Source of the DNA: Macrostomum hystrix
Lineage: Eukaryota > Animalia > Platyhelminthes
Length of the DNA: 64,000 nucleotides
Reading direction: 5' to 3'
Assembly (NCBI GenBank): GCA_950097015.1
Contig: CATNEN010000001.1
Location: forward strand, 19,034,001-19,098,000
Made by a program: the position numbers and the translations under genes. The notes under the pieces were generated by a model. That model was not told where the DNA came from. It was given only the letters and a program-made list of their open reading frames with translations, and did not search any database. This document shows, piece by piece, positions 3,001 through 44,347 of the stretch (position 1 is its first letter; every line of letters starts with the position of its first letter).

Positions 3001-4930
3001 TCCCACACCCATCTACTGTCTATCATCCGTATACTGTCCCACACCCATCTACTGTCCCACACCCATTTACTGTCCCACACCCATTTACTGTCCCACACCC
3101 ATCTACTGTCTATCACCCGTATACTGTCCCACACCCATCTACTTTCCCACTCCCATCTACTGTCCCACACCCATCTACTGTCCCACACCTATCTACTGTT
3201 CCACACCCATCTACTGTCCCACACCCATTTACTGGCCCACACAATTTACTGCCCCACACCAATCTACTGGCCCACACAATCTACTTTTCCACACCCATCT
3301 ACTGTCTATCACCCGTATACTGTCCCACACCCATCTACTTTCCCACACCCATCTACTGTCCCACACCCATTTACTGTCCCACACCTATCTACTGTCCCAC
3401 ACCCATCTACTGTCTATCACCCGTATACTGTCCCACACCCATCTACTTTCCCACACCCATCTACTGTCTCACACAATCTACTGCCCCACACCCATCTACT
3501 GTCCCACACCCATTTACTGTCCCACACCCATTTACTGCCCCACACAATTTACGGCCCCACACCAATCTACTGGCCCACACAATCTACTGTCCCACACCCA
3601 TTTACTGTCCCACACCCATTTACTGTCCCACACCTATCTACTGTCTCACACCCATCTACTGTCTATCACCCGTATACTGTCCCACACCCATCTACTTTCC
3701 CACACCCATCTACTGTCCCACATCCATTTACTGCCCCACACAATTTACTGCCCCACACCAATCTACTGGCCCACACAATCTACTGTCCCACACCCATCTA
3801 CTGTCATCACCCGTATACTGTCCCACACCCATTTACTGTCCCACACCGATCTACTGTCCCACACCCATCTAATGTCTCACACTCATCTACTGGCCCAAAC
3901 AATCTACTGTCCCACACCCATCTACTGTCATCACCCGTATACTGTCCCACACCCATCTACTTTCCCACACCCATCTACTGTCCCACACCAATCTACTGTC
4001 CCACACCTATCTACTGTCCCACACCTATCTACTGCCCCACACCTATCTACTGTCCCACACCTATCTACTGTCCTACACCCATCTACTGTCTCACACCCAT
4101 CTACTGTCTCACACAATCTACTGTCCCACACCAATCTACTGTCCCACACCCATCTACTTTCCCACACCAATCTACTGTCCCACACCCATCTACAGTCCCA
4201 CACTCATCTACTGCCCCACACCCATCTACTGTCCCACACCCATCTACTGTCTCACAGTCTACTGTCCCACACCAATCTACTGTCTCACACCTATCTACTG
4301 TCCCACACCTATCTACTGTCCCACACCTATCTACTGTCCCACACCTATCTACTGTCCCACACCTATCTACTTTCCCACACCCATCTACTGTCCCACACCC
4401 ATCTACAGTCCCACACTCATCTACTGCCCCACACCCATCTACTGTCCCACACCCATCTACTGTCTCACACAGTCTACTGTCCCACACCAATCTACTGTCC
4501 CACACCTATCTACTGTCCCACACTTATCTACTGTCCCACACCTATCTACTGTCCTACACCTATCTACTGTCTCACACCCATCTACTGTCCCACACCTATC
4601 TACTGTCCCACACCCATCTACTGTCTCACACCCATCTACTGTCTCACACAATCTACTGTCCCACACCAATCTACTGTCCCACACCTATCTACTGTCCCAC
4701 ACCTATCTACTGCCCCACACAATATTCTGTCCCACACCCATCTACTGTCCCACACCCATCTACTGTCCCACAAACATCACTGTCCCACACCCATCCACTG
4801 GCCCACACAATCTACTCTCCCACACCAATCTACTCTCCCACACAATCTACTGTCCCACACCAATCTACTCTCCCACACCTATCTACTGCCCCAGACAATA
4901 TTCTGTCCCACAGCCATCTACTGTCCGTCA
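1..4930. repeat. Satellite array, ~18-bp unit (TCTACTGTCCCACACCCA and variants) with higher-order repeats
   Basis: The unit is visible throughout. A block starting at 179 recurs at 2533 (2354-bp period), with ~240-bp sub-periods at 1141/1381/1621. The long ORFs here are artefacts of the repeat. Confidence 0.97.
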
Positions 4931-5266
4931 CCCACCCATGATGAGGCATTTGAGTCCCTAAAAACCCGGATGATGTCAACTGAAGTCCTGGCCTACCCAG
5001 TTTGTAGATGACGAGAGTGTGCGGATGGCGTCCATTAGACACTGACGCTAGTGATGGACGCATTGGGGCCTCTCTTGGTCAAATCCAGTCAGATGGTTTC
5101 GAAAGGCCAATAACATACTTCAGTAGAGCAATGAAAGAATCTGAAAAGCGATACCCCATCACTCGAAAGAACTCCTTGCCCTAGTAGATGCTATGAAGCA
5201 TTTCCGATTTTATCAAGATTTTTTTCACAAAGCCATTCTATTGTTATTAAGGCAAACTGAAGCTCA

Positions 5267-8063: not shown

Positions 8064-9005
8064 CCCGGTGGGACAGCTTTTTGGGGCGCAGGGTGGGGCG
8101 CCGTGCGCCCCGCTATACGCCTTCCCTTCCCGCCGCCTGGGCGCTGGGTGACTTTGCTATACGCCCCCGCTATACGCCCACCCGCCAATGGGGCGCAGGG
8201 TTTTATTAACATCACTTTTTCGCGGTTTTTTATCTTTTCGTGTAGTACACGTGACTTGTGGTTGCAGAAAAATATTATTTCACCTTTAACATGTCTAGTT
8301 GCTCTGAAATTTGGCAATATTGTTTGCATTATTTTCGAAATTTTCTTTCACGTATGCAAAAATAATTGGAGGAAGATTAATTCGCCATGTGCTACTATTA
8401 GTAGAAACGATAGGATACTGTTTCAGTCATATCCTATAGCTCATTCCTTCCGAAAGACCTGTACATGTAGACTGCAATTATATGACTCTGCATGACAACT
8501 TAGTGTAATAGCTAGCTAGTATATAAAACATGGTTGTTTCTAAATTTCTGTTTCCTCTACATTTATCATAGAGCATAGGGACTCAAAATTCGTCGAGATC
8601 AATCTGGATTAAAGGAGGTCCCAAAATCGATTCCGTGCCTTCCCTAGATTCCCTAGATTAGTAGGGTGAGAGGTAGATCAGTAGGGTGAGAGGGAGAGCA
8701 GGTAGGGTGAGTGGGGGATCAGGTAGGGTGAGAGGGAGAGCAGTAGGGTGAGAGGAAGTGTGGTAGTGAGATGCAGTAGAGTGAGAGGAAGTGTGGTAGT
8801 GAGATGCAGTAGAGTGAGAGGAAGTGGGGTAGTGGGATGCAGTAGAGTGAGATGAAGTGGGGTAGTGAGATGCAGTAGAGTGAGAGGAAGTGGAGTAGTG
8901 AGATGCAGTAGAGTGAGAGAAAGTGTGGTAGTGAGATGCAGTAGGTAATCCGAGTTGAATTGTATTTACAAATGTTCCCAGGTGTACAGGGAAGTCAGTT
9001 CTTTA
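8064..9005 (+). repeat. Left terminal/subterminal region
   Basis: Three GCTATACGCC motifs (8112-8180), an AGTAGGGTGAGA-type minisatellite and a ~59-bp unique segment (8947-9005). The minisatellite and unique segment are inverted at 53254-53563. Confidence 0.8.
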
Positions 9006-9033
9006 GCAGCAGGTCTACCGGCTCTGCACTGAG

Positions 9034-10944
9034 ATGCTCGCCGCCGCGGAAGCATGTATCCCCAAGAAGGTGTCCGCCAAAAATAAGCCCTATTGGGACG
9101 AAGAACTGGCCGCTGTCCGGGACGAAAGAAACCGGCTTAGGCAGAGTGGTAACGACCCAGAGACCCTGCAGGCCAAAAGTGCCGAACTTGCAAAACTCTG
9201 CGCGGAAAAGAAGGCGAAATTCTGGAAAGATTATGTCGACGAACTTCAAGAGAGCTCGGATCCCAAGAAGGTCTGGAACACCATCAAAACCCTAAGTGCG
9301 GGCAATAAAAACGAGGCACCCAACGAGATCCTCGTGATCGAAGGGAAGGAATTCCACTCGGACATGGACAAAGCCAACGCGTTCTGCCGGCACTATGCCA
9401 ACATTAGCAAGCTGAAGCATGACAAGAACGACCGCAGAACCAAAGTCCTCACCGCGAAGCGCCTAGCCGAGTACCCGAAGGGGGACCAAGATGAAGAACA
9501 AGACTTCAATTTGGGCGAGCTGAAAAGTGCCATCTCCAACATGGACGCCACCAAAAAGTGCGGGCCCGACGGCGTGGAGGTCGCCTTTTTCAAGCATCTC
9601 CCCCAGAATTGGCTCACCGCCTGGTTGCAGGTGTTCAACCGCTGCTGGCGAATTGGACACTGCCCGGGGGTCTGGAAGAAGGCCATCATTATCCCGCTGC
9701 TGAAAGATGGCAAGGATCCGCAAGAGTGTGGCAGCTACCGCCCTGTCAGCCTTACCTCGGTTTGTGTCAAGATCATGGAGCGCATGGTTCTAAACAGACT
9801 GTACTACTGGTTGGAGAAGAATAACATCATTCAACCGTGGCAAGCCGGCTTCCAACGGGGCCGCAGTTGTGAAGAACAAGTCGCACGCCTTGTCCAAGAG
9901 ATCCAGGACGGATGGGAAAAACATCCTCACTGGAAGACCATCGCCATTACCCTGGACTGCTCCAAAGCCTTCGACCGTGTGTGGAGGGCCCGGCTCATCG
10001 CGCGCCTGATGGACGAGCGTGTGCCAGGCCGTATGGTAAACTGGTTCGCCAGTTTTCTGGAAGGGCGGCAAATTGCAGTTCGCCTCGGAACTACTATTGG
10101 GAAGTGGCGACCCCTCTGCGAAGGTGTTCCGCAGGGAGCCGTCAGCTCCCCAGTCCTGTTTCTCCTGTACATTAACGATTGGAAAGACAAGATGGTCCCT
10201 AGTGTCTCCTATGGAGGCTTCGCTGACGACCTGAGCGTCTGGACCACTGGCCGCAATCTGAAGGAACTGCAAGAGCGCCTGAAGAAGGCTCTGGAGCTGA
10301 TCGAAAAATGGGCTGACAACCTGCGCATTGAGCTGAACCCCATGAAAACGGAAGTTTGCGTGTTCTCCCGTGACAAAGCGGATAGAGATTGTCGATTGGA
10401 CTTACATATCTGTGACCAAGCCATCAAACGCAGCGCGGCGATCCGCTACCTGGGTGTCTGGATTGACCAGGGGCTTCTGTTCGCTCGGCAAACCCAGGAG
10501 GCCTGCGACAAGATTGGCAAACGAACTGCCATCCTTCACGCCCTCGCCCATCGTGAATGGGGCTGGGACAGGAAGCTCCTCGCGTCCATCTATAAGGCCA
10601 TCGTGGAATCAGTGGTCTGGCATGCGGCGGCGGTCTGGATGCCCTGGCTACCCACCTGTCGGCTCGAGGACCTCGACTGTGCCCAGAGAGCGGCGCTGAG
10701 AGTAGTCACCGGCCTCCCGAAGAGAGCATCAAACGAAGCGGTCATACTCGAAGCTAATGTGACCCCCATTAGTATTGAAGCCAAAAGAAGAGCCCTGATC
10801 GCGGTGGAGAAAGCCATGCGCAGACCGACCTCGGACCCCTGGCGGCAGCTCTGCGAGCGCAAGACCAACGTCCGCCTTACCGCCAACAAAGGCCTCAGAG
10901 AGCAAGCTCGAGCCGTTGCGGAGCAGCTCCTCGACGGCCCGTGA
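9034..10944 (+). CDS. LINE reverse transcriptase (endonuclease missing; frameshifted from the RNase H part)
   Basis: Motifs GPDG, YRPVSLTS, QAGF, DCSKAFD, GVPQG, FADD and YLGV. Confidence 0.92.
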   Translation: MLAAAEACIPKKVSAKNKPYWDEELAAVRDERNRLRQSGNDPETLQAKSAELAKLCAEKKAKFWKDYVDELQESSDPKKVWNTIKTLSAGNKNEAPNEILVIEGKEFHSDMDKANAFCRHYANISKLKHDKNDRRTKVLTAKRLAEYPKGDQDEEQDFNLGELKSAISNMDATKKCGPDGVEVAFFKHLPQNWLTAWLQVFNRCWRIGHCPGVWKKAIIIPLLKDGKDPQECGSYRPVSLTSVCVKIMERMVLNRLYYWLEKNNIIQPWQAGFQRGRSCEEQVARLVQEIQDGWEKHPHWKTIAITLDCSKAFDRVWRARLIARLMDERVPGRMVNWFASFLEGRQIAVRLGTTIGKWRPLCEGVPQGAVSSPVLFLLYINDWKDKMVPSVSYGGFADDLSVWTTGRNLKELQERLKKALELIEKWADNLRIELNPMKTEVCVFSRDKADRDCRLDLHICDQAIKRSAAIRYLGVWIDQGLLFARQTQEACDKIGKRTAILHALAHREWGWDRKLLASIYKAIVESVVWHAAAVWMPWLPTCRLEDLDCAQRAALRVVTGLPKRASNEAVILEANVTPISIEAKRRALIAVEKAMRRPTSDPWRQLCERKTNVRLTANKGLREQARAVAEQLLDGP

Positions 10945-11893
10945 ACCGCTGGAATGGGCTCGTGCCCCACCGTGGCTGAATCTGACGCAAGCGAACCTAG
11001 CGCTTTTCGCCACCCTGTGTGAACCAGGCAGCCGGGAGGACGCTGTGGAGATCAAGAAAAAGGCGGCGCTCGACACGATCCGGACACGCTGCGGGACAGG
11101 AGCCCATTACTATACGGATGGCTCAGCGGCGGAGGGCACGACTAATGGCGGCGCGGCCTGGGTTTGTTTCACCTCGCCCGACTCAGAGGCGGTTGCTCGC
11201 TCTGGCCGCCAGCCAGTGGGCCGATGGTGCAGCTCCTTCGAAGCCGAACTGGTTGCCCTGGCGGCGGCGCTAGAGGACATCCGCGCGACTCAGCCCGACC
11301 AAGCCTCGATCTTCACTGACAGTCAGGCAGCCATTCGTGCCCTCTCCGCTGACCGCACCACCATGGACCCAAAGCTGGAGAACGTGAAGCGACTTGTCCG
11401 GGAAGTCCTTCAGCGCTCGCAGCTAACTATCCAATGGATCCCTGGCCACTCGGAAATTCATGGAAATAAAGTCGCCGATTTTGAAGCCAAGCAGGCCTCC
11501 CTCATGGACCAGAGCGCGGTGCCTATCTCGCAAGGGGCCGCGAAAAATCGCATTAGACGCGCGCTCAGGTATGAACCTGTCCTGACGGATCACCTGCTGG
11601 AAGTCTACAGACACCCGCTGATCCAGCACCAAGGTTGCAGGAGAGAACAGGTCTTGATCGCCCAGATCAGGTCCGGACACTGCCCGAGCTCGAGCTACTA
11701 CCAGCACCGCATTGGAGCAGTCGCGACCAGGATCTGCAGGCTCCGTGACGACCAGGTCGACCAGTTCCACGTGCTGAACTGCCCCGCTCTCGACATCACC
11801 CGGATTAACATTGGTTGCACCCTTATGGGGGACCTGGCCGATGGTCGTTTGGTGGCGCGACTTCTGGAGGCCCTGAATTGGCGCCCCCTGTAA
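10916..11893 (+). CDS. LINE RNase H + C-terminal zinc-knuckle-like region (continuation of ORF2 after a frameshift near 10935)
   Basis: Motifs YTDGS, AELVAL, IFTDSQAA, WIPGHSEIHGNKVAD, RSGH and HVLNCP. Confidence 0.88.
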   Translation: MRSSSSTAREPLEWARAPPWLNLTQANLALFATLCEPGSREDAVEIKKKAALDTIRTRCGTGAHYYTDGSAAEGTTNGGAAWVCFTSPDSEAVARSGRQPVGRWCSSFEAELVALAAALEDIRATQPDQASIFTDSQAAIRALSADRTTMDPKLENVKRLVREVLQRSQLTIQWIPGHSEIHGNKVADFEAKQASLMDQSAVPISQGAAKNRIRRALRYEPVLTDHLLEVYRHPLIQHQGCRREQVLIAQIRSGHCPSSSYYQHRIGAVATRICRLRDDQVDQFHVLNCPALDITRINIGCTLMGDLADGRLVARLLEALNWRPL

Positions 11894-11908
11894 GTCGCAC
11901 ACCGCATT

Positions 11909-12100
11909 CAACAACAACAACAGCGGCAACAACAGCAGCAGCCGCAGCCCAGCAGCCCCTGGCAGCTGCTGCCCACCACTGTGGGCCCGACCAGTGGTGC
12001 AGTCCAGTGGTGGAAGATGAAGGGAGGGGCCGGGGCGGCCACTAATTTCTCGCCGCCGAGGCCTCGGTGCCCTCCCTCCCGAGGACCGGGCAAGAAATAA
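11909..12100 (+). pseudogene. 5'-disrupted copy of the polyQ micro-ORF (paralog of 44348-44584)
   Basis: Reads QQQQ..PSSPWQLL..VQWWKMKGGAGAATNFSPPRPRCPP..KK*. The downstream 12100-12370 closely matches 44585-44855. Confidence 0.75.
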
Positions 12101-13069
12101 AAAGGTTTGTCTAAGCTACCTTTATGTGATACCTTTATTCCTCAATTCTTAATCATTAATCGTTCATTCTTTAAATAAGCGCTAGTAGTAAAATTATACC
12201 CGTTTGCATGTGTAAGTTTTCATTGACTGTGGTAAAACAAGATTTACTTTTTGCCATTATAGCACCATTTATCAAAATGCGATTGTCACACCACAATGCT
12301 AATGCAATATTACAACCTAGCAAAATTTACTCACATTCAATATGATTTTAGCCATAATGTCATACGTCGTGTCTTGTCGTGTTCATGTTTAAATTGAAAA
12401 TTGCATGAGCCATCCTCCAAGCTTTATAGCAAGTTTATCTGCTAATTTAAAGAAGCAGATAGCAACTGCGTACGAAGATAACCCCTCACTCCACCTTCAT
12501 GCTGTCCAATAACGAGCTGCTAACACACCTCGAAACCTCCCACTTCGTCATTTCAGACGCATGCATTTCATACCTGGAATGTATATTTGGAATATTTTGG
12601 AATACATCTTTGCTTGTTGTCTTCCTTTATTTCACTCATATTTATTTATTAGCTTGATGCACAGCCTAAATGTTTAGCTTCTTAGCTTTAGCTCAGCATG
12701 ATAACCAACATACGAGTATTTATCGAGCACTCCTTGCTTCGTGTTCCTGCACTTGCTTTGCTTGCCTGCTTTGCTACAATTCGTAGCTAAAGTACATTTT
12801 TTTCATTTCTACTAACATTTCTACTAAGCTGCTACTAACATTTACACTCCGACCCTTAAGCTAGCTCACCTTAAAGATTCGCATGCTTCCCATCTGATTA
12901 CAGGCAATCGTTATAGACAAAGATAAATATGTAAATTGGGTCTGAAACATTCCATATTTTTTCCAGACGTTCTCCATGAACACCTGACGCCTGGTACATG
13001 GTCAGGTGTGTCAAGAAACGGAAGCTTCGGATGACATTGATATTAGTGTATATTCTAAGACTGCTCCCC

Positions 13070-13230
13070 AGAAGTTCGAGCGTCATGAAACTGTTGCCGT
13101 ACAGTTCAGCGGCATAATAACTGTAAAATAACTGGTCGTCGAGAGAAATAAATTCGAAGATAAGTTTTTATTACTTAATAGACACAACAGGCATTTTGTA
13201 CGAGAGAAAAGCCTAAAGTGCCTTTATCAG
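13070..13230 (-). pseudogene. CACTA transposase relic
   Basis: TCATGAAACTGTTGCCGTACAGTT is shared with 32771-32794; AAELYGNSFMT here versus AAQLYGNSFMT in transposase A. Confidence 0.65.
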
Positions 13231-14474
13231 GAAACATGTATGCTCTTTTATAATTGGCTCCTTGAGCTTTCCCATTTTTAGTTCTGTAATTCACTGTTGG
13301 TCTGCTCATTCTCACTCTTCTTCAATTGCTTTGCATTTAGTACCCTGCAGCTGCAACTAATTCAGTTCTACAAAAAATTTCCGGTTCGGATGCAATCTGC
13401 CTATACTATGGCTTACATCCCACATGTATACAGATACTTAGTGTTTATTATTTTCTCCCCCTATGCATTCTTTCACACTAATTTTACACAAAATTAATCG
13501 CTCTAAATTAAGCAGCCACAGTCGGAATTATACGTTATACTAAACTGCGCACTAACTAAACTAAACTACGTTATACTATACTAAACAATAAATCAATATT
13601 CATTTTCGTTGACTCTTGCTTATCGAAATTCGAAAGTAGCTTGCTTTGCTAGCTTTTTAAACCCTTTGTGCATGTACGATATACGCCTTATAAATTGAAT
13701 TCCGCAAATGCGGAATTTCCGGATGTGGTCAAAGTGCAAATACAAAGCTCAAAGTACCTATAAACTTTAAAATCTTTGCCGATGGACAAATAGATATGCT
13801 CCAGCTGTATTTTACGCTTCACTTAGCTTGCACTTGATTACACTTCGTGACATTATTCGCACAGTAGCAATAGCGTTTCCATTTTCAATCTGTAAACTAT
13901 GTAACTGGTAAGCAGTAGCTCTAATAATTGTGTTTGGAAAAAAGGGAAATATTTGTAATAATAATTCAAGTGCTAAAAATTAATGCAGTATATCAAGGAA
14001 TAGCTAGAATAGCTACATGAATAAAATTAATATACATAGACATCGCTACCTATAAAGCGATCAATGTGCAAAATTCCCTCAAATGTGCCTTATCGAAAAT
14101 CAAGGTCCCTGTTCACAAATTTTGATTTGTGAACAAATCATTCGGCACATTCATGGGTGTTGCTGACCGGGTGGGGAGCACAGACTAATTAGATAAGGCT
14201 TTACTTCTGGGGGAGACCCATACAGTCTAGGTAGCCACGGTCAAAACTCTAAACATTCTTATCAGTTTTTTATTCTGCCGTTACCTCAGCTCTTTCGGCC
14301 TTGCAAGTTCTGTGACTATGTCAAAGAGCTCTATATGCCAACTGTTCCTAGAAGTCACTTTAATAACAAAGTAGTTTACGACAGAGGATACATAGTTATG
14401 CATATACACGGATGCAAGTTACGCAAAAAAACAAAACGAGTCATAGAAACATGTCTGTCTATCTAGTCTCGCAG

Positions 14475-15029
14475 TCATGGGTTCTTAACAAGAACGTCAC
14501 TGTCAATACTTTTACCAGCCGTGTAGTCGAACGTAAGGTCTGTGCCGGCTGAAACATATTGGGTTGTCACAAAATAAACGACGGGTCGGAGCCCCTGGTC
14601 GATGACAATGAACTTCGCTTTACAGTTGGGAGCAGTAGCAGAATGATTGAGATACCTCCCCAATCCATCGCTGTTGCTGGCGTCAACTACCCATAATTTA
14701 CTGTTAAATTTAAATTCAAATAGAAGCCAGTCAGAGTTGGGTTCAACTTCACGCCTTATCGCTTCCTGCTCGTTCAGCAGGATTCCGGCGAACTCGTCGA
14801 CATACGCACCGGCAGCTAGGTCTATTCTTGCGAAGGCGCCCAGTCCCTTCTCGCCCGCAGGTGCAACGGTGATCGCGGTGTCCGTCTTTCCGTTGATGCC
14901 CAGAACGCGTTCCGTAATATCTTTAGTGGTTGTCGGGGGACGATAATTGATGGTAGACCGGCTGAGCCTCCGAGCCGGCCTCGTCTTAACGGTTGGCACA
15001 GGCTCAGGCTGCGGGGTGTAGTTTAACAT
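14475..15029 (-). CDS. Intronless SET-domain lysine methyltransferase, PR-Set7/SET8 (KMT5A)-like, 184 aa
   Basis: Motifs KGLGAFA, DEFAG, VDAS, GRYLNHS, PNC and DLTFDY. ATG context is AAAACATG, with TATAAAA ~110 bp upstream (15136-15142 on the - strand). Confidence 0.9.
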   Translation of the reverse strand: MLNYTPQPEPVPTVKTRPARRLSRSTINYRPPTTTKDITERVLGINGKTDTAITVAPAGEKGLGAFARIDLAAGAYVDEFAGILLNEQEAIRREVEPNSDWLLFEFKFNSKLWVVDASNSDGLGRYLNHSATAPNCKAKFIVIDQGLRPVVYFVTTQYVSAGTDLTFDYTAGKSIDSDVLVKNP

Positions 15030-15340
15030 GTTTTAATTTGTTTTCTCATCCGTCTAAATCGAAATCTCCCCTTTAGAATCTAAATTCCCCAAAGAGAGAC
15101 AATTACGCAAAGAGAAACTTGGGCTCCTAAATCAATTTTATACAGCCACACCAATCGCTATTAATTGACGTACCTCTAATCCACATACGGCTAGGGCGAT
15201 GCGAAGCGATTGATCCACGCGTAATTCGCCCTCTTCCTCGCTGTCGGTGAAGGACAAATCGACGTTTCAGATGGGTTCAACTTCAGGGACGGCGCGGTTT
15301 TTAGTCTGGAAAATTGTGGTGCATAATTTTAATTTATCAA

Positions 15341-15557
15341 ACCTCTCACTCCACCTCTCACTCTACTTCTCACTCTTCCTCTCACTCTACTTCTCACTCC
15401 ACCTTTCACTCTACCTGTCACTCCACCTTTCACTCTACCTGTCACTCTTCTTCTCACTCTACCTCTCACTCTTTCTCCCACTCCACCTCTCACTCTTCCT
15501 CTCACTCCACCCTTCACTCCACCTCTGACTCTCCCTCTTTCTCCCACTCCACCTCTC
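15341..15557. repeat. 12-bp CTCACTCCACCT-type minisatellite (continues at 19400-19478 after a LINE insertion)
   Basis: Tandem units on both sides of the LINE. Confidence 0.9.
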
Positions 15558-18500
15558 TTGACTTACTTGACTTAGCTGCAGGGGGCATCTTCCCGGATGC
15601 AGCGGGGAGGCGTTGCCGCCCATTCCGCTAGCCCCTGGCGACCACGGGCAACTAAAGCTGCGGTGTCGCGCAGGGGGATCCGGTGGTGCCGGCGTCCGCA
15701 GCGCGGTCCTCCACCGGAGAGTCCAGGAGGTGGAGGGTTGCTCGCCCGGTGGCCCTCAGGTATCGGACGAGCTGGCAGATGTTCTCAGGCCTGAAAACGT
15801 CGGGGAGATCCGGGTTTGGGCCGAGATAGGTGAGCCTGTCCTGAGTGAAGGCGGGGCAGTCGCAAATAAAATGCTCTGCATCCTCAACATAGGAGAGGCA
15901 GAAGGGGCATTCCTCACTGCGGATTTTGCCTTGCAGGAAGCGGTGCCTGGCGAAACAGCCATGGCCAGAGAGGGCCATGGTAACTGCCCTGATGTCCTTG
16001 CGGTTCAGTCCAAGCAAGGCTTTGCGAAGGGCAGTGGAGGGACAAGGGACAGCAGCGCGAGACTGCCGACAATCGGCGGTATTGATCCATCTGTCCTTGT
16101 GCTTTGAGGCCACCCACGGGTTAATCCGAGTGTTGACGACGGCGGTAGGGGTGGAGACCACAGGCACGGGGCCAAAAAGCGAACCCGTCGAACCGGCCTT
16201 GGCGAGGCTGTCGGCCAATTCGTTACCAGGGTGGCCAGAGTGCCCTGGAATCCACCTTAGGGACACCTTGTTGTGGGTCCCTAAGGGGTTGAGTTGCTGC
16301 GCAGTCGAGGACTGTGCGCGAGCAGGTGTGCGTGCGTCCAAGGGCATGGATCGCCGCCTGGCTGTCCGAGTGGAGGAAGATTTCTGCTCCGTGGACGTTT
16401 TGGTTGATCAGCTCCAGGGCGCAGGAGCTGATGGCGAGAACTTCGTTCTGGAAAACGGTAGAGTTTATGCCGGTGTGCTGGGAGAAGGTCGCCACAGTTT
16501 TCCCTCCGGACATAATGCAGTAGCCGAAACCAGAGACCGAGTTGATTTGCGTCGGTGAACGTACTTCCTGGCGAGGCGGAATGCTGGTTTTGAATTTTTG
16601 CGGTGGGCACAGCGTCGACGGGATTCCGTCGGAGAGAATTTTGAGACCTCCTGCTGCGTCCAAGTCCCGTAGGCTGAGGTCACCATGGGGCTGGAGGTTC
16701 CGCTTGCTGAAGGCAAGTTGCTTTCGGATGGAGATGCCCGCGTCCAGAAGACGACGAGCCGTCTTCATCGCCTCCCCCTTGATAAAAAGATCTAAAGGGG
16801 GAAGGTCCAGGAAGGCATTCATGCCAGCGAAGGGAGTGGAGGGTGCCGCACTCATGATGGCTCGACAAGCACGGCCCTGCACCTTGTTTAGGGCCACCAG
16901 GACCCCTTTGGTCTCCAGGGCACTATTCCAGATGAAGCCGGCAAAAGAGATGGCCGGTCTTACAATGGTAGTGTAAATCCACCAAAGACGGCGGGGGGTG
17001 AGGCCCCAGGTAGCGCCGAAGGCTCTGCGGATCTGCGCGAGCGTCGCAAGAGCTTTGCGGGTTTTGAATTTGACGTGAGGTGTCCAGCTCAACCTGTGGT
17101 CGAGGATGACACCTAAGCATCTGGTTTGCTTCTCCATGGCGATGGGTTTGTCATAGAGAAGGAGAGGCTCAATCCTCCAGTTTCGTTTGCTCGTGAACAT
17201 AATGGCGACGGTCTTGGACTCAGAGACTTTGAGGCCGCAGCCATTGGCCCAGCGCTCGGCACGGTGGATGAAAGCTTGCAAAAGGTCTCTAAGGACCGGG
17301 GGAGACGGTCCGGCCACGGTGGCGGTGACGTCGTCAGCATAGCCGATTTTTTGGACCGGGTCCGGGTCAGGGCTGCAGAGCAGCTCGTCCATGACAAGGT
17401 TCCAAAGGATCGGACTGAGAACGCCACCCTGCGGGCCTCCCTTCTGGACATTCACAGAACGGGAGTGGCCAAGCCGGTGCGAGGTGGCAGTTCGGTGAGA
17501 GATCATATACATGATCCAGCGGGTGAGGTGCTCGTACGTAGCCCGGCGTTCCAGGGCTCGCCTAAAGGCTCCGAAAAGCACATTGTCGAAGGCACCATCA
17601 ATGTCGAGGAAAAGCGAGAGAGCAAAACCGGTGCCAAGCACGGCGCGCTCCAGCTTGTCGACAATGACATGCAGAGCACCTTCGATGGAACGTCCAGATC
17701 GAAAAGCGTGCTGGTTGGCGGAGAGCGGGGAGTTCCTCAGCTCAACGTGAAGGAGGCGCCAAAGAACAAGCCTTTCAAGCAGCTTAAGAAAGAAGGATGT
17801 TAAGCTGATGGGGCGGAAGGCTTTGGTGGAGTGGTAGTCTCCCTTCCCAGGTTTGGGGATGAAGACGATAGTGGCTACCTGCCAAGACCTGGGTACGTAC
17901 CCGAGGGTGATACAGGCCTTGAACAGGTTGCAAAGGAGGCCGAGGAACCTGTCATTTTTCACAGGAGGGTTCCTTGCGCCGGAGGGTTCCAAGCGCTGGG
18001 TTCCACCAGGGAGCGGATTTTTTGCCTTTGTAGGCTTTAAGGGGGCAAGAGGTTTCATGAGCTGTCAAGATGGTCATGCTGAGTAGATCAGCCAGATCGT
18101 CCACTTCTTGACAGGTGGCAGGAACAACGGATTCTAACTGGTTGGTCTGGCGCTTCACGGATTCCGCAAAGGCCGTCCAGTCAGTATTCCGGGCGTTCCT
18201 TTTCCACAGAATACCAGGCTTGGAGTAGGAGCTTAGCAACCGGAAACGAATGAAGCGATGGTCAGACAGAGATTCCTCTTCGTCCCACACCTGCCAGTTC
18301 CTAATCAGAGGGATCAGGCCCTGAGAGGCGAGGGTGGCGTCAAGGACCTCCGTCCATCGCCCATTGTCAAAGGTGGGTGTGCCACCCGAGTTGCAGAACT
18401 CAATATCGGTGGTGCAGATGTAGGCAAGGAGATCCTCGCCTCTGCAGTTTGAGGTAACACTGCCCCAGTGGGTGTGGTGGGCATTTATGTCGCCTGCCAC

Positions 18501-19399
18501 CAGCAGCTCAAAGTCGCGGTCTGAGCAGTAGTCCACGAGGGAAGTGAGAGGTCTGGTCTATACCAAGCTTTGAGATCGGTAGTCGCGAACACAGCAGCCC
18601 TGGGGTTTTGGGTCATGAAAAAACTGTCAAAACCTGCAGGAATGTTCGGAATCTTACCTTTCTTCGTCCAGGGCTCTTGGAGGAGGATGATGCCCGGTTT
18701 TTCGAAGTCCACCACACGCGCCAGGTTGGTCGAGGCCGCGATGCAGTGGTGCAGGTTCAGCTGCAGGAAGCTCACCCAGGAGGGGCGGTCCGTGCGGCTA
18801 TCTGCTGGCCTACGGCGAGTTGTTCAGGAGCGATTCCTCGTCCTCGCCGGTGTTTTGCCCGAGCTCCATCGGTTCCTCCTGAATCGGATCCAGAGCTGAG
18901 GCCGGGGCTGCCGCAACAGCGGCGTCCGTATCCTCAGCCCGGTTTTCCGCTGGGGGTTCCGATGAAACATTGGGCCGGGTGATGCTGCGGTGGCGTCCAC
19001 TGTTGGGGTCCGACAGCTGTCTGGCGCGCTGAGTCAGGCCAGTACGGATGGTGTTGCGGGCGGGTTTCCGGCCCTTACCACGTCCGCCTGTCGTTGCGGC
19101 TCGCGCGGCTTTGCCCCTGATAGGGTCCGCATCCTCGGGTGGTCGTGACGACCAGGAGTCTGTGTTCCAGGGCGCAGGGGCCCGGCAGAGCTCTGGTTCG
19201 TCCGTTTCCGCTTTTCCGGGGGCGGCGGGCGAGTGGCGTCGGACTCGAAGCTGAAAATCTGCATTCGAATGAGGCCTGCACTGATGTAGGACATGTCTGG
19301 GCAGCGGAGCATCCAGCTGTCCGACAATCCTAGGATGGCCGTGAAACCGTCTCCACTAGGTCTGGTGATGGTTTCATGAACCACGACACCGTTTGCTGG
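15558..19399 (-). mobile_element. Non-LTR retrotransposon (LOA/Lian-like, APE-RT-RNase H), 5'-truncated in ORF1, frameshifted
   Basis: 13-bp TSD CACTCCACCTCTC (15545-15557, 19400-19412) and a 3' tail TAAGTCAAGTAAGTCAA on the - strand. Confidence 0.9.
15652..18775 (-). pseudogene. LINE ORF2 (APE endonuclease, RT, RNase H, Cys/His motif) broken into four ORFs
   Basis: Motifs [71 protein letters not shown] and CPFC..H..C. Confidence 0.9.
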
Positions 19400-19869
19400 C
19401 ACTCCACCTCTCACTCTTCCTCTCACTCCACCTTTCACTGCACCTCTCACTCTTTCTCTCACACCACCTCTCACCCTACTTAAGTTTAACATAACAGACA
19501 TAGACTGGGCCTACATGCAAGGACTAAACTCTCACTCAACGTCTCAGTGCGTAATAACATGTAAGACGTGACTGAACTGTGCTAGACAATAGTAAAAGAA
19601 TAAAGCAGGTGTAAAAATAGCTGTGAGTTGCTGCTTCTGATGCATCTGATGCACCGCATCTCACCTTACTGAGGGCGATGCGCGCTTCAAACAAATTTTT
19701 AAACTGGGCCCGAATGTGCCCGCACCTTCGCAGTCGGATCTGTTTCTGCTTCTGTGATGACAATGAATCGCAAAAGAATTTCATGTGCGCTGAAAATGAA
19801 TGTCAATGTTAATATTTCGGAGCTTAAAAACTCGCAATTTAACGGCTGCCTAACGAGGTTATAAGCACC

Positions 19870-20210
19870 CCCGGTGTAAAAAGCATCGTCGAAAAGACGT
19901 CTTTTCGACGCCTACGGTCCGATCTAACCCTATGACAGCTCAGCTAAAAAAATCGAGTTAGCTGCTGAAAACGTCTTAAGAGGTCTTGATTTCAGTTATA
20001 AATGCATTTAAAAGATGAAAAAAGGTGTACTTCGTACAGTCCGATTTTAGTCCGAAAATGGCCGACGCGTCGACCGGCTCCAAAATGGTCCGATTTGAGT
20101 CCGAAAAAGGCCGACGAGAAGGACGATGTTCCAAAAAAAATTACTCGTGAGTTAGCTGCTAAAAACGTCTTAAAAGGCCTTGATTTCAGTTCTAAATACA
20201 TTTAAAAGAT
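19870..20210 (+). repeat. Second CACTA-like left end with ~194-bp tandem subterminal repeats (continues at 27858-28090)
   Basis: Begins CCCGGTG, the same 7 nt as 8064. Perfect palindrome at 19887-19910. Repeated GTCCG motifs, with AGTTAGCTGCT..AAACGTC units at ~19956, ~20150 and ~27980. Confidence 0.6.
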
Positions 20211-21936
20211 TTGCATAATTATTAGAATAAACTTTAATCATGACCCCTGGCACACCCAGCTTGTTTTTGCTCGAAATTTATCCCTACCCGGGCCCTAATG
20301 CCCTCGCCCCACATAACGATTAAGACGAAAATCCCTGCGTAATCCGAAATCAGAGTTTGGCCGAATCTAGCCTGTATGAACATTATGTGTGTTAGCGGTC
20401 AATATCATTAAGTTTCATCGTTTCCCTTGCCTAATTTCAGAGACCTCGTGCCGCCGCCTGGCCCTAAGATTACGTTTGCGATCTGTAAGTCGCCGCAGCT
20501 TAATCCCTACAACTTACCCTTACTTAGCCACCGTTTGACATTCCAACCCGTAGGATCCCGTTTGAAAGAAAAACTTCCCGGAGTAAAAAAAACCTGAATC
20601 CCTACATCTGCACCGCCCTCCTACGGCTGCGGCCATAGTTACCTGATTACCATTCCTGATATATTATCCTACTTTATTCTACTGTCCAATTCTCATCCTA
20701 AAAATTCGTTCTCCCGCCACAGCTCTGGAACTGGTGCCCGGCCAAGAGGCGGCCTTCGGCGCCCTGCTGGGCAAATTCTTGATCGGCCCGAGCGGCCTCG
20801 CTATGGCAGCCGGCCTGCTAGCAGCCGCGGGCGTGCTCTGGCTTGCCCACCGGCACTAGCTGAAGCTGAGCAAAGATGGATCTACTGACACCCGACGACG
20901 GAGTGCCTGAACTATTAAGTGCCAGTTTGGTGCTCTTTGTACATAATGTATGCTAGTTTTCTTTTTTCTCCTTTTCTCATCTTTTTTATGGTTAGTGCGA
21001 TGAAAAGAAAAATATATATTCAGGCTGTCCCAATGGTGCGCGATTCTTACACGACCTCTGTCGTTAGATTCTTCCCTTCCTTCTAAAAGAACTTATGCTA
21101 CTCATACTAAGAAGAGCTCCAATTGAAAAGACAACGCGTCACCTGAGCTTGCCCACTAAAGTTCACCTCCTTGCCAATAGTAAGTTTTAATCTGGCCCGA
21201 AAGCATATAACATTATTCTTACTTAGGTGCCCGCAGTTCCATTGACTCATCCCAGTCGTAAACAACCACGTTCCCTGACTAAGTGCCCTTTCATTCTTCC
21301 TGCATTCCCGTGAGAAAAAAAAGACCACTACTTGACAACTCGCTAACCCTCTGAGCCAATGAGAACGCTCCCCTTAAGTCCTATCGTATGCCCGATCGGT
21401 TCCTTGTTTTATGACAAGGCTACCCTTTGTCTTCATCAAACATAGAAGAGCCCAACATACCACCCCGCTCACTTTAGCGGGTTGGTATCCCTCCTAAAAT
21501 AGAAATTGTCCCGAGATGCACCCCACAGACCCACCCGAAGCAAAAAGGATAAAGAAGGGTGCCATTCACAATGTGGTGCGAATAATGCTAAATGTTTGAG
21601 AAGAAGAAGGTGCACTTCCTAGTTTGCTACAATTATTGAAAACATCTCATGCGAAAATCGTACAAGGGGAATTTCACCCCATTACGTATGTTTTTGTGGT
21701 TTTGGCTAGATTATAATAATATTTAGGCAGAATTTTGGCGCCAAGATGGCTTTAATGAAAGAGGAAAACACAACAATACGAGAAAGAGTGCGCGGTGCGA
21801 AAAGTTATTAAAGGGGAGAAGAAAAAGGAAAAGGACAAAGGGGGGGGGGGAAACAGAGGACAGGGGCCTATTGGATAGGGATCCTATTGATACAGTTCTG
21901 CGGTCACCGCCTCAATTGATCCTACCTTGCGTTTTC

Positions 21937-22656: not shown

Positions 22657-23202
22657 CTAGAGAGCAGGCCTCCGCCTGAGCGAGAAAGGGATGGATTGGC
22701 TGTAGATAATTAGGTTTCGCGAGTCAAAATCGAGAATGGCGTGATGGTGAGCCAACCAGGAAGCGCCTAGCAGGGGAGAGCAGTCGCCCTCGACCACAAG
22801 GAATAGAGTATCCAGTGCTTCGGCGCCAACCTGTAATTTGATTCTGACTTGCGCGAGTGCAACAATTGGTGTGCCATTGTAAGCAATTAGTGAAAATTGA
22901 GGGGGTTCGAATGGGAGCTGTCGGATGATTGATGATAGCGAGTCCGGGAGCACATTGACCATAGATCCAGTGTCGATCAACAGGTCAAGGGGTGTCCCGT
23001 CCACCTCTAAGGCGACCCATACCTCGCTAAGCTTCTCGGAGCGGTTGGGGCGGGTGCGCACTCGGGTGGGGACTCGGCCGAGTGAATTCACTCGGACTTC
23101 GAAGATGGAGGCACTGACGGGGGGGCCTCGATCGCCCGGGCTGCCAGAGGCGCCTCCGGATAACTGAGCTGCCTCCAGTCGGCGGCCCCACTCCCGTTTC
23201 CC
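22657..23202 (-). CDS. Retropepsin aspartic protease, -1 frame relative to gag
   Basis: LLIDTGS and PLLGASWL motifs. Slippery heptamer GGGAAAC at 23196-23202 (- strand). Clean stop at 22657. Confidence 0.88.
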   Translation of the reverse strand, partial: GKREWGRRLEAAQLSGGASGSPGDRGPPVSASIFEVRVNSLGRVPTRVRTRPNRSEKLSEVWVALEVDGTPLDLLIDTGSMVNVLPDSLSSIIRQLPFEPPQFSLIAYNGTPIVALAQVRIKLQVGAEALDTLFLVVEGDCSPLLGASWLAHHHAILDFDSRNLIIYSQSIPFSLRRRPAL

Positions 23203-24164
23203 GAAGCTGCGCCTTCGCGGTGCCTTCGCCGCGCCCACGGCTTCTCCTGCCTGTGGTGCCAGTGGTGTCCTGTGGTGTGCGGACAAGGAGGCAGGACCGG
23301 GGCCGGCTTCGGCTCTCGCAGCTGCCGCGTGACTTCCGCGAGCTGCTCGGTGACTCTGGCCAGCTCCTGTGCCAGCTGTTGCTGATCCTTGCGGACCGCC
23401 TGGATCTCGCTGGAGCATCCCTGCCCCTCATCCGGCTCGGCTCTCACCTGCCGCACTCGGCGACGCGGATCCCGTTCAGCTGCCATCTCAAATGCCTGAG
23501 TGGCGGCGCGCAGCTCGGCAGCGGCCTCCTCCATGGTCGCGAAGTCCAGTCGCATGATCGGGGCCAGTACCTCCGGGGGGGCCGTAATGCCTTCAAGAAA
23601 AGAAGCCAGAAGGGCCTGTTCAAAGGGCGCGCCTCGACCATTAGGATTCACCTGGGTGGCGGCGGACCGCAGGCGGTCGGCGAAGGAGGCGTACGACTCA
23701 TCTCGGGCCTGCTTAAGGTTCCGCCCGCTGAGGAGCCGGGCATAAGACGTACAGGCGCCGCAGAGGGCCTCGGTTAGGTCCTGGACAAATCGCAAGTAAG
23801 TCCCGCAGCGCGGTAGACTCATAGCCTGCGTTAGCGGCTCGCCGCCTAAATGAGCTAGGAGGGTTAGAATTCGTTCCTCCTCGGTCTCTAGGCCCTCGGC
23901 CTCAATCTTGAGGTTGAACCGGCGCAGCCAGCGCGGGAAGGAATCCTTCGGAGAGTCATAAGGCTCAATTGCCACCTTCACCCGGTGATTCCGGGGGCGG
24001 CGCACCTCTAGTCGCTCTAGCAGGGAGGCTAGGCGCTCGACTGGGTCAGCATTTTGGCCTGCTGCGGCCGCAGGCGGTTCGGCGCGCGCTGCAGCTGCAG
24101 CGCGGCCTCTCGGTGGGCGGGCATTGCCAACGGCCTCCACCACCTCATCCTCCTGGTCAGACAT
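23088..24164 (-). CDS. Ty3/Gypsy Gag
   Basis: IEPYD..FPRWLRRF, LAHLGGEP, KQARDESYASFADRL (MHR-like) and FLEGI, then a coiled coil. ATG at 24164. Confidence 0.85.
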   Translation of the reverse strand: MSDQEDEVVEAVGNARPPRGRAAAAARAEPPAAAAGQNADPVERLASLLERLEVRRPRNHRVKVAIEPYDSPKDSFPRWLRRFNLKIEAEGLETEEERILTLLAHLGGEPLTQAMSLPRCGTYLRFVQDLTEALCGACTSYARLLSGRNLKQARDESYASFADRLRSAATQVNPNGRGAPFEQALLASFLEGITAPPEVLAPIMRLDFATMEEAAAELRAATQAFEMAAERDPRRRVRQVRAEPDEGQGCSSEIQAVRKDQQQLAQELARVTEQLAEVTRQLREPKPAPVLPPCPHTTGHHWHHRQEKPWARRRHREGAASGNGSGAADWRQLSYPEAPLAARAIEAPPSVPPSSKSE

Positions 24165-25546: not shown

Positions 25547-27857
25547 TGAAGTGGGTGGGCCTTTTATAAGCGCTGACCTGCACTCATGAGAATAGGTTTC
25601 TAGGGCGGGCGACAGAGTCGACTTAATGACCGCTTAGCTGCTCGCGAGATTTCGCGGAAAGAGAGATGAGATGAAGGGAGGTTCAGCGGATGCAGGGAGT
25701 GGTCCTATCGGCCTCAGGCTGGCCAGTCCCACTCGTCCCATAGGCCACAGGCGTGACAGCCGTGCCTACCCCAAGCAATGCTCGAAACCGGCTAAAAGTC
25801 TGAGAAGAGGGTCGGACTGCCCGGAATCGGGCAGGGCAGGGCTAACCAGTCTACTGCCATCAGTAGCATGTAAGGAACTGACTCCTAACCTTGGTAGCGG
25901 TGGTCGAAACGGCCCAGGCTCTTGTCACAGAAATGCGGAAAGGCTATTGGCAAAGCGGAAAATGATCTCAGGTAGCGCCACCACCCAATGCGCCTACGTT
26001 GCCACCGCAGACATTTGGGAACTTGGGTCCCCGGAGTACACAGCTCCTAGTTTATCACGCAGATCTAGACAAGCCGAAAAATAGGGCATTCTGCAACTTC
26101 CGTTTTAGACTGGGGTGAGAGCCCCAGAATGGATCGAGACCCGCCTCAAAAGGGGATTCCTGAATTCGCGCTACAGGGGTCTAGAAAGGTGGTACTCAGA
26201 ACTCGAATGAAAATCCATAGCCGGAATCCTACTCATGAAACATCAGGCACATTCTTTACATTAGACTGCAGCCTACACATTAGGTAACTAACAAATCCGA
26301 ATCTGTGTGAGATGAGGAAATCAGAGGCAGGAGAGATTAGACAGAACACTGGCTGAGTGGTTACGCAAGCGCAAGATTATTAGATCATCACTCTCGCTCC
26401 CGTGGCGGCAGTCGCGAAAGGGGAAAAGGGGAAAACTCCATTGGAAAGGGAGTTCGAACGTACACCTTGAACCCGCCGGAGAGGAAGAAGGAAAGCCCGC
26501 CAAGGATTCCCCCGACCTCCTAGGAAGAAATGCACGTCCTACACTCCGCATTTTGCTCGCGAACCCCTAGCTCCTTATTACTCTTATGCGCGCTTACAGT
26601 TGCCTTCCTGCCGCAGCCTTCGGCTCGGCATCACCAGAACCCGCCCCCCTTGGCGATTAGCCACTCATGATAGAGGGCTGTCTAACGATAAAATAAAAGC
26701 GAAAGAGAGACATAGTAAAAGAATTAGGTTGATGTTAAAAATTAGCCCAATAAGTTAAAGGTGCTTTAGATTAGATGGTTTATTAGGCTGGAAACTTCCC
26801 TAACTTCCCTCCCACTAAGTGCCGCCTAACTAAAAGTAAATTGTCCCTTAGGATTAACAATAACAAACCGCTGCGCGGATTACTTAGCTGAATCTCGTTT
26901 GGCCGCGTGCTGCAGTCCCGTTGTTCTCGGGGAGAAAGGATGGGCAAAACAGTATGGCAGAGAAAGGAAACTTCTGCGAGTTGGCAGGGGCCAACACACT
27001 GGGAGCTCAGAGGCTCAATTTAGAGCTCACCTAAAGAGGTGGCTTGCGCTTAGGGAATGGAAGCCGGCAATTGGCCTGTACTATCTGCTCGGAGCTCAAG
27101 GCTCAAGGGTCTAAGCCCTACGTGGGTCCGGAATAGTGCTCTGGGTCCGGTGGGAGTCCGGCCCGGCAAGGAAATAGGTCCGGGAAAAGGAGAGGAAAGG
27201 TAGGTCTCCCGGAAAGGTCCTTTTTAGGGGCAGCGCAGCGCGCCTTCTTAAATAGTCCTGCAGCACGCCAACCCCGACATCCATCAAAGCAACCCACATT
27301 CGCGCCAGCCTGTCAACGGGGAATCGAAGCGGCGATGGCCGCCCCGATTACCCAATGAACCGACGGCGGGAAACGACAGATGTTCTGCTCGAACAGCCGT
27401 CGGCAGTCGGCCAATGATTGTTACTCCGCCAGGACAATGGGAAGCGCAGGCGCCGACCTGCCTACATTGACATTTACGTGTATCTAAAGGAGGGAGGTCA
27501 TAAAGTCGAGCTGGGCTCGAATACTGTAAAGAAGTGGGGACATGAAGAATTAATGATCACTCATAATGCCCGAGTGATTCCCAATATCTGATCGCGGTTT
27601 GGAGGGGAATTATGACCTAAACTATTCATACAATAAAGCTGTGGCCGCGATTAGTCATTCCTACAGGGGTCTAGACAGATCCAGGGAGAGGGGATTCGAC
27701 GGCTACTTAATTCACCGCCGCCCCAAACCCGGCCCTAAGATTAATGATCGTGTTTGCGGCCAGCTGCTATGAGGGTCGCAATTATTAGGTACTTAAAAAT
27801 TTGAAAAATTATGCTGGCTCACACTCCCACTCGATTCCCGCAGCACACTCCACATCA
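25547..27857 (-). repeat. 5' LTR (2311 bp)
   Basis: TGATGTGG...CCACTTCA on the - strand (imperfect inverted termini), bounded by the TSD and the PBS. Confidence 0.8.
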
Positions 27858-39044: not shown

Positions 39045-39159
39045 CTGCCTATCATCACATTTACTTCTAAAATTAAAACAGAACATTACTACCTCGGAGA
39101 GCGAGAGGGAAGCTTCCGAGGCCATAAATCAGAGGAATGTGGGCTCCAAAGCAGCTCCT

Positions 39160-43810: not shown

Positions 43811-44347
43811 TGCAGGAGCTAACCAACAATTTAGCAAATCTAAATTGGGTATCTAGCAAACACTTTACAACAAATGATTAGCCAAGCCTTACCAGTTCTC
43901 AGATGCCAGCCTGAAGATAGCAAGCAAAGCCACCATTCCAGCTTGTGTGATAAGGACCTGTTAAGATGTACTACACCTCACTACAGTTTGCTAAGATTTT
44001 ACCATCATTTTAACTGCTTTCATTTTCTTGAATCCTTAATTCCTTTCAGGCTCTTCAATTATTTGAATTATTTGAATTTCACTTCTCCTTTAAGCTTTCA
44101 GCTGAAATGCCTCTGGCATCATCCATGAGCAATGAGCTGTAGCTCAGGAGCATTGAGCTAAAAGCTAGGTTTCTCTAGCTAGTGAAACCAAGCCATACAC
44201 TTTTACCATCCTTTTAACAACCTTAAATCCATTTGAACATTTTAAACACCCTTTGATACACTTATTTTACTCTTATTCACTTCTACTTTTGCTTTACCTT
44301 TACTTTTACTTATTTACTTTTCAATTTTCAGACTTTTAGGCTTGAAT

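What the first reader, a model, noticed from the sequence alone, without database searches (positions are those of the whole stretch)
14475..15029. Transposon-borne SET8-like enzyme with both lysine-channel tyrosines replaced by Phe
Seen: DEFAG and LTFDY where SET8/PR-Set7 has VEYHG and LLYDY; GxG, RYLNHS and the last invariant Tyr are kept. The gene is intronless with a minimal N-terminus. Known: human SET8 Y245 and Y334 hold the lysine amine, and Y334F (the Phe/Tyr switch) converts it from a mono- to a di-methyltransferase. Inference: this may have altered product specificity (H4K20me2/3 or a non-histone target), or be a catalytically weak decoy.
Basis: partly seen in the sequence, partly recalled or inferred. 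Interest (0 to 1): 0.8.

Follow-up and report, generated by a model that had tools for sequence, protein, structure and literature searches.

The report
Transposon-linked SET8 copy lacking active-site tyrosines
A repeated animal gene derived from the histone-marking enzyme SET8 has phenylalanine in place of both tyrosines that hold SET8 to a single methyl group, so intact copies likely add further methyls to already marked histone H4, but this copy stops just before a conserved tryptophan and is likely crippled.

Summary
The ORF at 14475-15029(-) is an intronless 184-aa SET protein. F80 aligns to SET8 Y245 and F167 to Y334, residue for residue with the solved Y245F and Y334F mutants. SET8 descent is supported by trees, fold search and the kept nucleosome arginine anchor (R20/R24 = R188/R192). 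F167 is common (49 of 156 related domains); F80 is rare (1 of 156); both together 0 of 156, although 9 of 85 distant metagenomic SETs have both. A third tyrosine (Y271) is Leu. And this copy's TGA is Trp in nearly all other contigs, so it loses the SET8-type PWL tail and is likely crippled. The gene is multi-copy with an approximately 85% paralog and sits among CACTA-derived fragments, but no element ends enclose it; the adjacent LINE is a later insertion. By analogy with EZH2 Y641F and Suv4-20h2 S161A, intact copies likely are weak enzymes that need pre-methylated H4K20 (0.4); a decoy role is the main rival. SET cargo in transposons is known. This scan earlier noted a SET with an unusual active site in a CACTA element elsewhere in this genome (unchecked).

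The parts
14475..15029 (-). SET8-derived SET-domain ORF, 184 aa, intronless
14958..14972 (-). Codons R20-R24 (RRLSR): match to the SET8 arginine anchor R188/R192 that binds the nucleosome acidic patch
   Evidence: query 20 = 7D1Z residue 188; ungapped PARRLSR/PVRRSSR, weak E-value for this half alone; PMC7893823 passages; R[RK]xxR at this place in 22 of 28 PWL-tailed relatives long enough to score
14838..14846 (-). GxG cofactor motif (G62-L63-G64, preceded by K61)
14790..14792 (-). F80 (TTC) at the SET8 Y245 position
   Evidence: no variant listed here in near-identical copies
14724..14726 (-). L102 (CTT) at the SET8 Y271 position, a third lost aromatic
   Evidence: Y or F in 153 of 156, L in 0; no variant listed
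14640..14657 (-). RYLNHS cofactor-binding motif
14529..14531 (-). F167 (TTC) at the Phe/Tyr switch, SET8 Y334
   Evidence: also F in the two closest relatives P0047 and P0003
14523..14525 (-). Invariant Tyr Y169 (SET8 Y336) kept
14463..14477 (-). Premature TGA (14475-14477) at the codon that is Trp in other copies, followed by three in-frame codons and TAG; the SET8-type PWL ending is lost in this copy
   Evidence: variant depth 991 of 1076 in X1; all of the depth in X2, X3, X4; PWL tail of SET8
15136..15142 (-). TATA-like TATAAAA about 110 nt upstream of the ATG (consensus match only)
   Evidence: read from sequence; not tested against chance
14269..14274 (-). AATAAA about 200 nt downstream of the stop, inside a segment shared with the flank of a CACTA-like transposase
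14259..14346 (.). Segment 74% identical to 31689-31774, which lies 3' of the CACTA-like transposase at 32298-34652
13082..13119 (-). 38-nt remnant, 89% identical to transposase coding sequence 32770-32807
11909..12375 (+). 470-nt segment 86% identical to 44405-44855, which lies about 1 kb 3' of the second CACTA-like transposase
15332..15560 (-). 3' half of a 12-nt-repeat ORF encoding an Arg/Gly/Val-rich peptide, directly upstream of the SET gene
   Evidence: (D6)
15560..19400 (-). LINE (endonuclease-like, RT, RNase H; frameshifted) inserted into the 12-nt repeat; a later insertion, not the carrier (ends approximate)
   Evidence: loose ends of other contigs at 15594 and 19401
19396..19501 (-). 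5' half of the Arg/Gly/Val-rich repeat ORF

Best explanation
This is a SET8-derived gene, present in several copies and likely carried as cargo by CACTA-type DNA transposons, whose intact members likely dock on nucleosomes like SET8 but, lacking both lysine-channel hydroxyls, would add methyl groups only to already methylated H4K20, while the copy in this window has an early stop and is likely crippled. Shown: SET8 ancestry, the Phe residues at the Y245 and Y334 sites, kept GxG/RxxNH/final Tyr, several copies, the stop. Inferred: docking on the H2A/H2B acidic patch through R20/R24; H4K20 as target; poor activity on unmethylated lysine and slow me1/me2 to me2/me3 conversion, because a hydrophobic channel cannot orient a bare amine but holds a methylated one; dependence on host SET8 for the first methyl; loss of cofactor binding in this copy because the Trp of the PWL tail is missing.
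For: Alignment to the solved mutants. Query + P0047 + P0003 form a clade (100/99) on the SET8-like side of a 100/99 split from H3 methyltransferases; grouping with the SET1-type pair rejected, p-AU 0.012 (same picture). Top five Foldseek hits are SET8. Arginine anchor aligned (PMC7893823 passages). Analogies: EZH2 Y641F prefers me2 substrate, G9a Y1067F and SET7/9 Y245A become trimethylases (PMC3914023, PMC3868588 passages); Suv4-20h2 S161A, with Phe at the switch, methylates only dimethyl peptide at reduced activity (PMC3874154 passages). Copies: 15 contigs on 211 nt in X1; an about 85% paralog without gaps over 576 nt. Among near-identical copies 4 of 5 listed changes are synonymous (P about 0.01-0.03). 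Stepwise history: P0003 has Y/F. The post-SET segment completes the cofactor site in SET enzymes (PMC3868588 passage).
Against: No activity data. The same Tyr-to-Phe change in yeast Set1 (Y967F) lowers di- and trimethylation instead of raising it (PMC3585878 passages). L102 removes another conserved aromatic (0 of 156) and K/R63 is Leu, so catalysis may be very weak. The selection signal rests on five changes. Whether the 85% paralog keeps F80 is unknown: one search did not lay it and one search showed 40 of 818 variant rows. Structure scores do not separate SET8 from MLL cleanly (VIA Z 14.7 vs 13.8, tied) and the best sequence hit in PDB is KMT2D. No terminal repeats or linked intact transposase enclose the gene. 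More H4K20me3, a silencing mark, is not an obvious benefit to a transposon.
Confidence: 0.4

Rival explanations
1. Intact copies are catalytically dead or nearly so and act as decoys: they sit on the acidic patch and H4 tail (or hold methylated K20 in the hydrophobic channel) and keep host SET8/Suv4-20 away. Less H4K20 methylation could ease silencing, or favour homologous repair of the excision gap, which restores the donor copy.
For: Three channel or cofactor tyrosines are lost (F80, L102, F167) while the nucleosome anchor is kept. Set1 Y967F and Y993A reduce activity (PMC3585878 passages). H4K20 state steers 53BP1 versus BRCA1-BARD1 (10.1101/2023.11.22.567520, start of abstract in listing).
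Against: All cofactor motifs are intact and the other copies keep the tail Trp, which a pure decoy would not need. Loss of these hydroxyls leaves activity on methylated substrate in EZH2 and Suv4-20h2 (PMC3914023, PMC3874154 passages).
Confidence: 0.25
2. The whole family is passively copied, decaying cargo; the Phe and Leu changes are drift after capture and have no function.
For: This copy has a nonsense change, and the four window-private changes listed are one synonymous, two amino-acid changes and the stop. The neighbourhood is rearranged transposon debris with LINE insertions. Long end branch (0.53).
Against: The 85% paralog aligns over 576 nt with no gap in X1; 4 of 5 changes among near copies are synonymous; every SET motif survives although the protein is only about 40-52% identical to its nearest relatives; Tyr-to-Phe at both sites are the conservative changes.
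Confidence: 0.2
3. It is an active multi-methyltransferase for another substrate: a transposon protein (transposase, or the basic Arg/Gly-rich peptide encoded next door) or another histone lysine.
For: The substrate-side residues have diverged (SET8 C270 is Trp, Y274 is Glu). Small SET proteins in metagenomes have Phe at both sites (9 of 85 loci), so the combination is tolerated in enzymes that are not H4K20-specific.
Against: The acidic-patch anchor and the RE pair matching SET8 R258/E259 are kept. The neighbouring basic peptide has few lysines.
Confidence: 0.15

Closest known systems
SET8 / PR-Set7 / KMT5A (H4K20 monomethyltransferase; PDB 1ZKK, 3F9W, 3F9Z, 7D1Z)
   Same: SET fold, no Cys post-SET, arginine anchor, GxG, RxxNH, final Tyr, PWL-type tail in other copies; 29-30% identity.
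   Different: Phe at Y245 and Y334, Leu at Y271; no long N-terminal regulatory region; intronless and multi-copy; tail truncated in this copy.
Macrostomum lignano BOX15_Mlig014918g1/g2 (P0047) and unnamed P0003
   Same: Nearest relatives, one clade 100/99; both have Phe at the switch and a PWL tail.
   Different: P0047 is a 94-aa annotation that lacks the Y245 region; P0003 keeps Tyr there and has an N-terminal Cys/His-rich extension.
EZH2 Y641F, G9a Y1067F, Suv4-20h2 S161A (mutant enzymes lacking the first channel hydroxyl)
   Same: Loss of the hydroxyl at the Y245-equivalent site on a background with Phe at the switch (Phe191 in Suv4-20h2 from PMC3874154; EZH2 F724 as the switch residue is recalled).
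   Different: These are cancer or laboratory mutants of other subfamilies; here the state is natural and in a SET8 lineage, and activity is untested.
SET-carrying transposons: HarbingerS and MuDR of Phytophthora, proto-Helentron-Pi; SET genes of adomaviruses
   Same: A captured, intronless SET gene in a mobile element (PMC12730594, PMC4067079, 10.1101/341131; passages).
   Different: The Helentron SET is Clr4-like and the hosts are oomycetes; here an animal SET8 derivative beside CACTA-like fragments. Viral SET folds match less well than SET8 (24-25% identity).

Membership tests
SET domain superfamily | Pfam SET above cut-off, GxG, RxxNH and final Tyr | tested here: met
SET8/KMT5A lineage | Groups with SET8-like proteins apart from H3 methyltransferases | tested here: met
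   (100/99; labels set by tail motif, a few named)
SET8/KMT5A lineage | N-terminal arginine anchor R188/R192 | tested here: met
   (sequence match only)
SET8/KMT5A lineage | C-terminal PWL tail, no Cys post-SET | tested here: not met
   Stop before the Trp in this copy; Trp codon in other copies
SET8/KMT5A monomethylase | Tyr at 245 and Tyr at 334 | tested here: not met
   F80, F167
SET8/KMT5A monomethylase | Methylates nucleosomal H4K20 | not testable with these tools
   needs an assay
CACTA/EnSpm cargo gene | Lies between paired terminal inverted repeats with a 2-3 bp target duplication | tested here: inconclusive
   No pair enclosing the gene; region rearranged, no genome held
CACTA/EnSpm cargo gene | Linked to the element's transposase or internal sequence | tested here: inconclusive
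   Three fragments shared with transposase or its flanks within 2.6 kb; nearest transposase ORF is 17 kb away; its family rests on a sub-cut-off DUF4218 hit and recalled motifs
CACTA/EnSpm cargo gene | Multiple copies | tested here: met
   Several contig variants at about 85% and 96-100%; depth not used as copy number
LINE-encoded gene | ORF inside the LINE ends | tested here: not met
   The LINE ends about 530 nt upstream of the ATG and splits the repeat ORF
Endogenous DNA virus (adomavirus/Polinton-type) gene | Closer to viral SETs, or capsid/polymerase genes nearby | tested here: inconclusive
   No close viral relative; no such Pfam hit among 40 ORFs scanned

The most novel reading that the evidence does not exclude
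Large CACTA transposons of this flatworm lineage captured SET8 and retuned it in two steps (switch Phe, then Y245 Phe) into a natural counterpart of the lymphoma mutant EZH2 Y641F: a selfish H4K20 'finishing' enzyme that relies on host SET8 for the first methyl and writes H4K20me2/3 on nucleosomes, converging on Suv4-20 output from a SET8 scaffold.
Probability: 0.25. Interest if true: 0.75.

Novelty: new variant of a known kind. Interest (0 to 1): 0.45.

Why it matters
SET8 is known as a strict monomethylase, and the double loss of its channel tyrosines is absent from all 49 SET8-type relatives scored here. A natural version would test directly whether a SET8 scaffold can become a sequential me2/me3 writer, and would show a transposon family manipulating H4K20, the mark that governs silencing, replication licensing and break-repair choice. 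The window copy itself is the wrong one to assay; the value lies in its intact sisters.

Tried and rejected
No genome is held, so copies could not be listed or read in full. Word-based protein searches found no close relative: none at near length, six distant ones with an alignment, none among longer proteins (weak evidence). Sequencing runs: no RNA holder listed; nothing is concluded on expression. The second read-laying, aimed at F80 in the 85% paralog, did not pick up the paralog contigs. Search for terminal inverted repeats around the gene gave none. Viral contigs gave only 28-32% matches; the ESM Atlas gave only generic SET clusters. LINE as carrier: rejected. KMT2/MLL ancestry suggested by the top phmmer hit: rejected by the AU test, with the group chosen after seeing the first tree. 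The structure model is modest (pLDDT 64, eight sequences; residues 12-50 and 172-184 under 50), so nothing is drawn from its tail. The two primary SET8 papers were not held. The Crypton paper has no mention of SET cargo. Paper searches found no description of a natural double-Phe SET8 or of SET8 cargo in flatworm transposons; the library lacks most subscription journals, Repbase Reports and was not searched in supplements.

Full report
Observation. The window holds one SET ORF, 14475-15029 on the minus strand, 184 aa, with an in-frame stop two codons before the ATG and a Pfam SET match at E 1e-12. HMMER aligns DEFAG to VEFHG of the solved SET8 Y245F mutant and LTFDY to LLFDY of the Y334F mutant. 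GLG (62-64), RYLNHS (125-130) and Y169 are intact.

How unusual. I aligned 156 domains from the 150 best of 1940 hits; partial hits such as P0002 and P0047 were dropped by a coverage filter. Phe at the switch is common: 49 of 156, and 12 of the 49 with a SET8-type PWL tail. Phe at the Y245 site occurs in 1 of 156 and 0 of 49; both together in 0 of 156. The pair is not unique among SET proteins: 9 of 85 metagenomic and viral loci have it (the seed patterns favoured FDY, so this is no frequency). The five of these nine that I translated are small proteins with a Cys-type post-SET, not SET8.

Ancestry. The best PDB sequence hit is KMT2D, narrowly ahead of SET8, so descent needed a test. In a 35-row tree the query forms a clade with P0047 and P0003 (100/99) on the SET8-like side of a 100/99 split from H3 methyltransferases; forcing it with the SET1-type pair is rejected (p-AU 0.012; the 77-row quick tree agrees; group labels came from tail motifs, with a few names). 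The top five Foldseek hits are SET8; VIA-align ranks SET8 first (Z 14.7, rmsd 2.9, 128 aligned) but MLL3 ties within 1. The short N-terminus is not featureless: R20 and R24 align with SET8 R188 and R192, the arginine anchor needed for nucleosome binding and H4K20 methylation (PMC7893823, passages); 22 of 28 scorable PWL-tailed relatives have the motif there. P0047 is annotated in Macrostomum lignano at two loci, so the host is likely a related flatworm. P0003 has Tyr at the first site and Phe at the switch, P0047 has Phe at the switch: the switch change is likely older and F80 later.

Copies, and the state of this one. Four of eight listed runs were laid (two studies; X1 may be the source sample). 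They hold copies about 96-97% identical and a paralog about 85% identical: 89 differences and no gap over 576 nt in X1, 88 differences and 2 gaps in X3, 54 in 357 nt in X2. X1 has 15 contigs on a 211-nt stretch. At 14475 nearly all contigs read C: 991 of 1076 depth units in X1 and all in X2, X3, X4. That makes the window's TGA a Trp codon elsewhere, followed by three codons and a TAG, the PWL-type ending of SET8 (W349 by the numbering). The post-SET segment completes the cofactor site in SET enzymes (PMC3868588, passage); that W349 stacks on the cofactor adenine is recalled. This copy is thus likely crippled. The listed window-private changes are one synonymous, two amino-acid changes and the stop (only 40 of 818 rows were shown). 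Among near-identical copies, 4 of 5 listed changes are synonymous, against 20-26% expected (P about 0.01-0.03): a small hint of purifying selection. No variant is listed at the F80 or L102 codons in near-identical copies. The paralog's state at F80 is unknown.

Is it transposon-borne? The LINE upstream is inserted into a 12-nt repeat ORF whose halves lie at 19396-19501 and 15332-15560, and other contigs leave the window at its ends; it is not the carrier. Downstream of the gene lie three pieces shared with the two CACTA-like transposase regions of the window: 14259-14346 (74%), 13082-13119 (89%, transposase coding) and 11909-12375 (86%). No terminal repeats enclose the gene. The transposase label rests on a sub-cut-off DUF4218 hit and recalled motifs. 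An earlier unreviewed note describes a 23.4-kb CACTA element with a SET of unusual active site 432 kb away in this genome (e1-10590211); it prompted the CACTA search, but a look-up by sequence did not link it to this protein and I could not check it. I put carriage by CACTA-type elements at about 0.65.

Mechanism. Shown: fold, motifs, anchor. Inferred from analogues: Tyr-to-Phe at the switch makes SETD8 a dimethylase, and loss of the first tyrosine turns G9a and SET7/9 into trimethylases (PMC3868588, passages). EZH2 Y641F gains efficiency on me2 and loses it on unmethylated lysine (PMC3914023, passages). Suv4-20h2 S161A, with Phe at the switch, acts only on dimethyl peptide and more weakly (PMC3874154, passages). 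The best reading is a weak, nucleosome-docking enzyme that extends H4K20 methylation begun by host SET8 (0.4). Against it: Set1 Y967F loses di- and trimethylation and Y993A is impaired (PMC3585878, passages), L102 may cripple catalysis, and a silencing mark is not an obvious gain for a transposon. Hence the decoy (0.25), neutral decay (0.2) and other-substrate (0.15) rivals. The primary SET8 mutant papers were not held.

Novelty. SET cargo is known from HarbingerS and MuDR (PMC12730594, passages), a proto-Helentron (PMC4067079, passages) and adomaviruses (10.1101/341131, passages); enlarged multi-ORF CACTA elements are known (PMC6431247, passage). Searches found no natural double-Phe SET8; the library is incomplete and supplements were not read. 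Verdict: a real, unusual active site in a SET8-derived repeated gene; a new variant of a known kind; this copy likely dead; function untested. Interest 0.45.

Noticed in passing
window 39159-39538 and 53563-53891: Long inverted repeats (93-98%) flank about 14.7 kb holding an intronless HES-type bHLH gene ending in WRPW (40730-41098), a CACTA-like transposase (45882-47865) and plus-strand ORFs (48213-50309); possibly one element with a transcription-factor cargo.
   Followed up: partly
window 19396-19501 and 15332-15560 (-): Arg/Gly/Val-rich ORF built from a 12-nt repeat, with many VRGG/VKGG units, split by a LINE, just upstream of the SET gene; protamine-like, and the xGG units recall viral core-protein cleavage motifs (untested; no Pfam hit).
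   Followed up: partly
window 19866-20222: CAC-starting sequence with a 24-nt palindrome (19887-19910) and 194-nt-spaced direct repeats, 78% like 27857-28086; may be an EnSpm-type terminus, but no partner in the window.
   Followed up: partly
window 14284-14350 (-) and 31690-31770 (-): The shared segment begins after an AG in both places and reads as a short similar peptide on the minus strand; may be a terminal exon of a spliced element gene.
   Followed up: no
window 44343-44584 and 11909-12100 (+): PolyQ-encoding terminal-exon-like segment with AATAAA, in two copies; the LINE at 8655-11900 ends in the second copy's repeat.
   Followed up: no
window 32298-34868 and 45882-47877 (-): Two related transposases (38-39% identical), each in two frames; plus-strand ORFs 38286 and 48213 are also related (25%).
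   Followed up: partly
window 22657-24164 (-): Gag-like and aspartic-protease ORFs of an LTR retrotransposon.
   Followed up: no
window 1-5000: Tandem array of 17-18-nt units with an apparent 2354-nt duplication (ORFs at 179 and 2533 start identically).
   Followed up: no
proteins P0001, P0004, P0008, P0012, P0020, P0035: A clade of SET8-derived domains, in fish where named, with RxxND[DE] in place of RxxNH, multi-copy or repeated within long ORFs, some with MYM/TRASH zinc fingers; possibly another mobile SET8 family. P0035 has Phe at the Y245 site.
   Followed up: no
L005, L029, L037, L039, L068, L069, L071, L077, L081: Small SET proteins in metagenomic and viral contigs with Phe at both channel positions.
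   Followed up: partly
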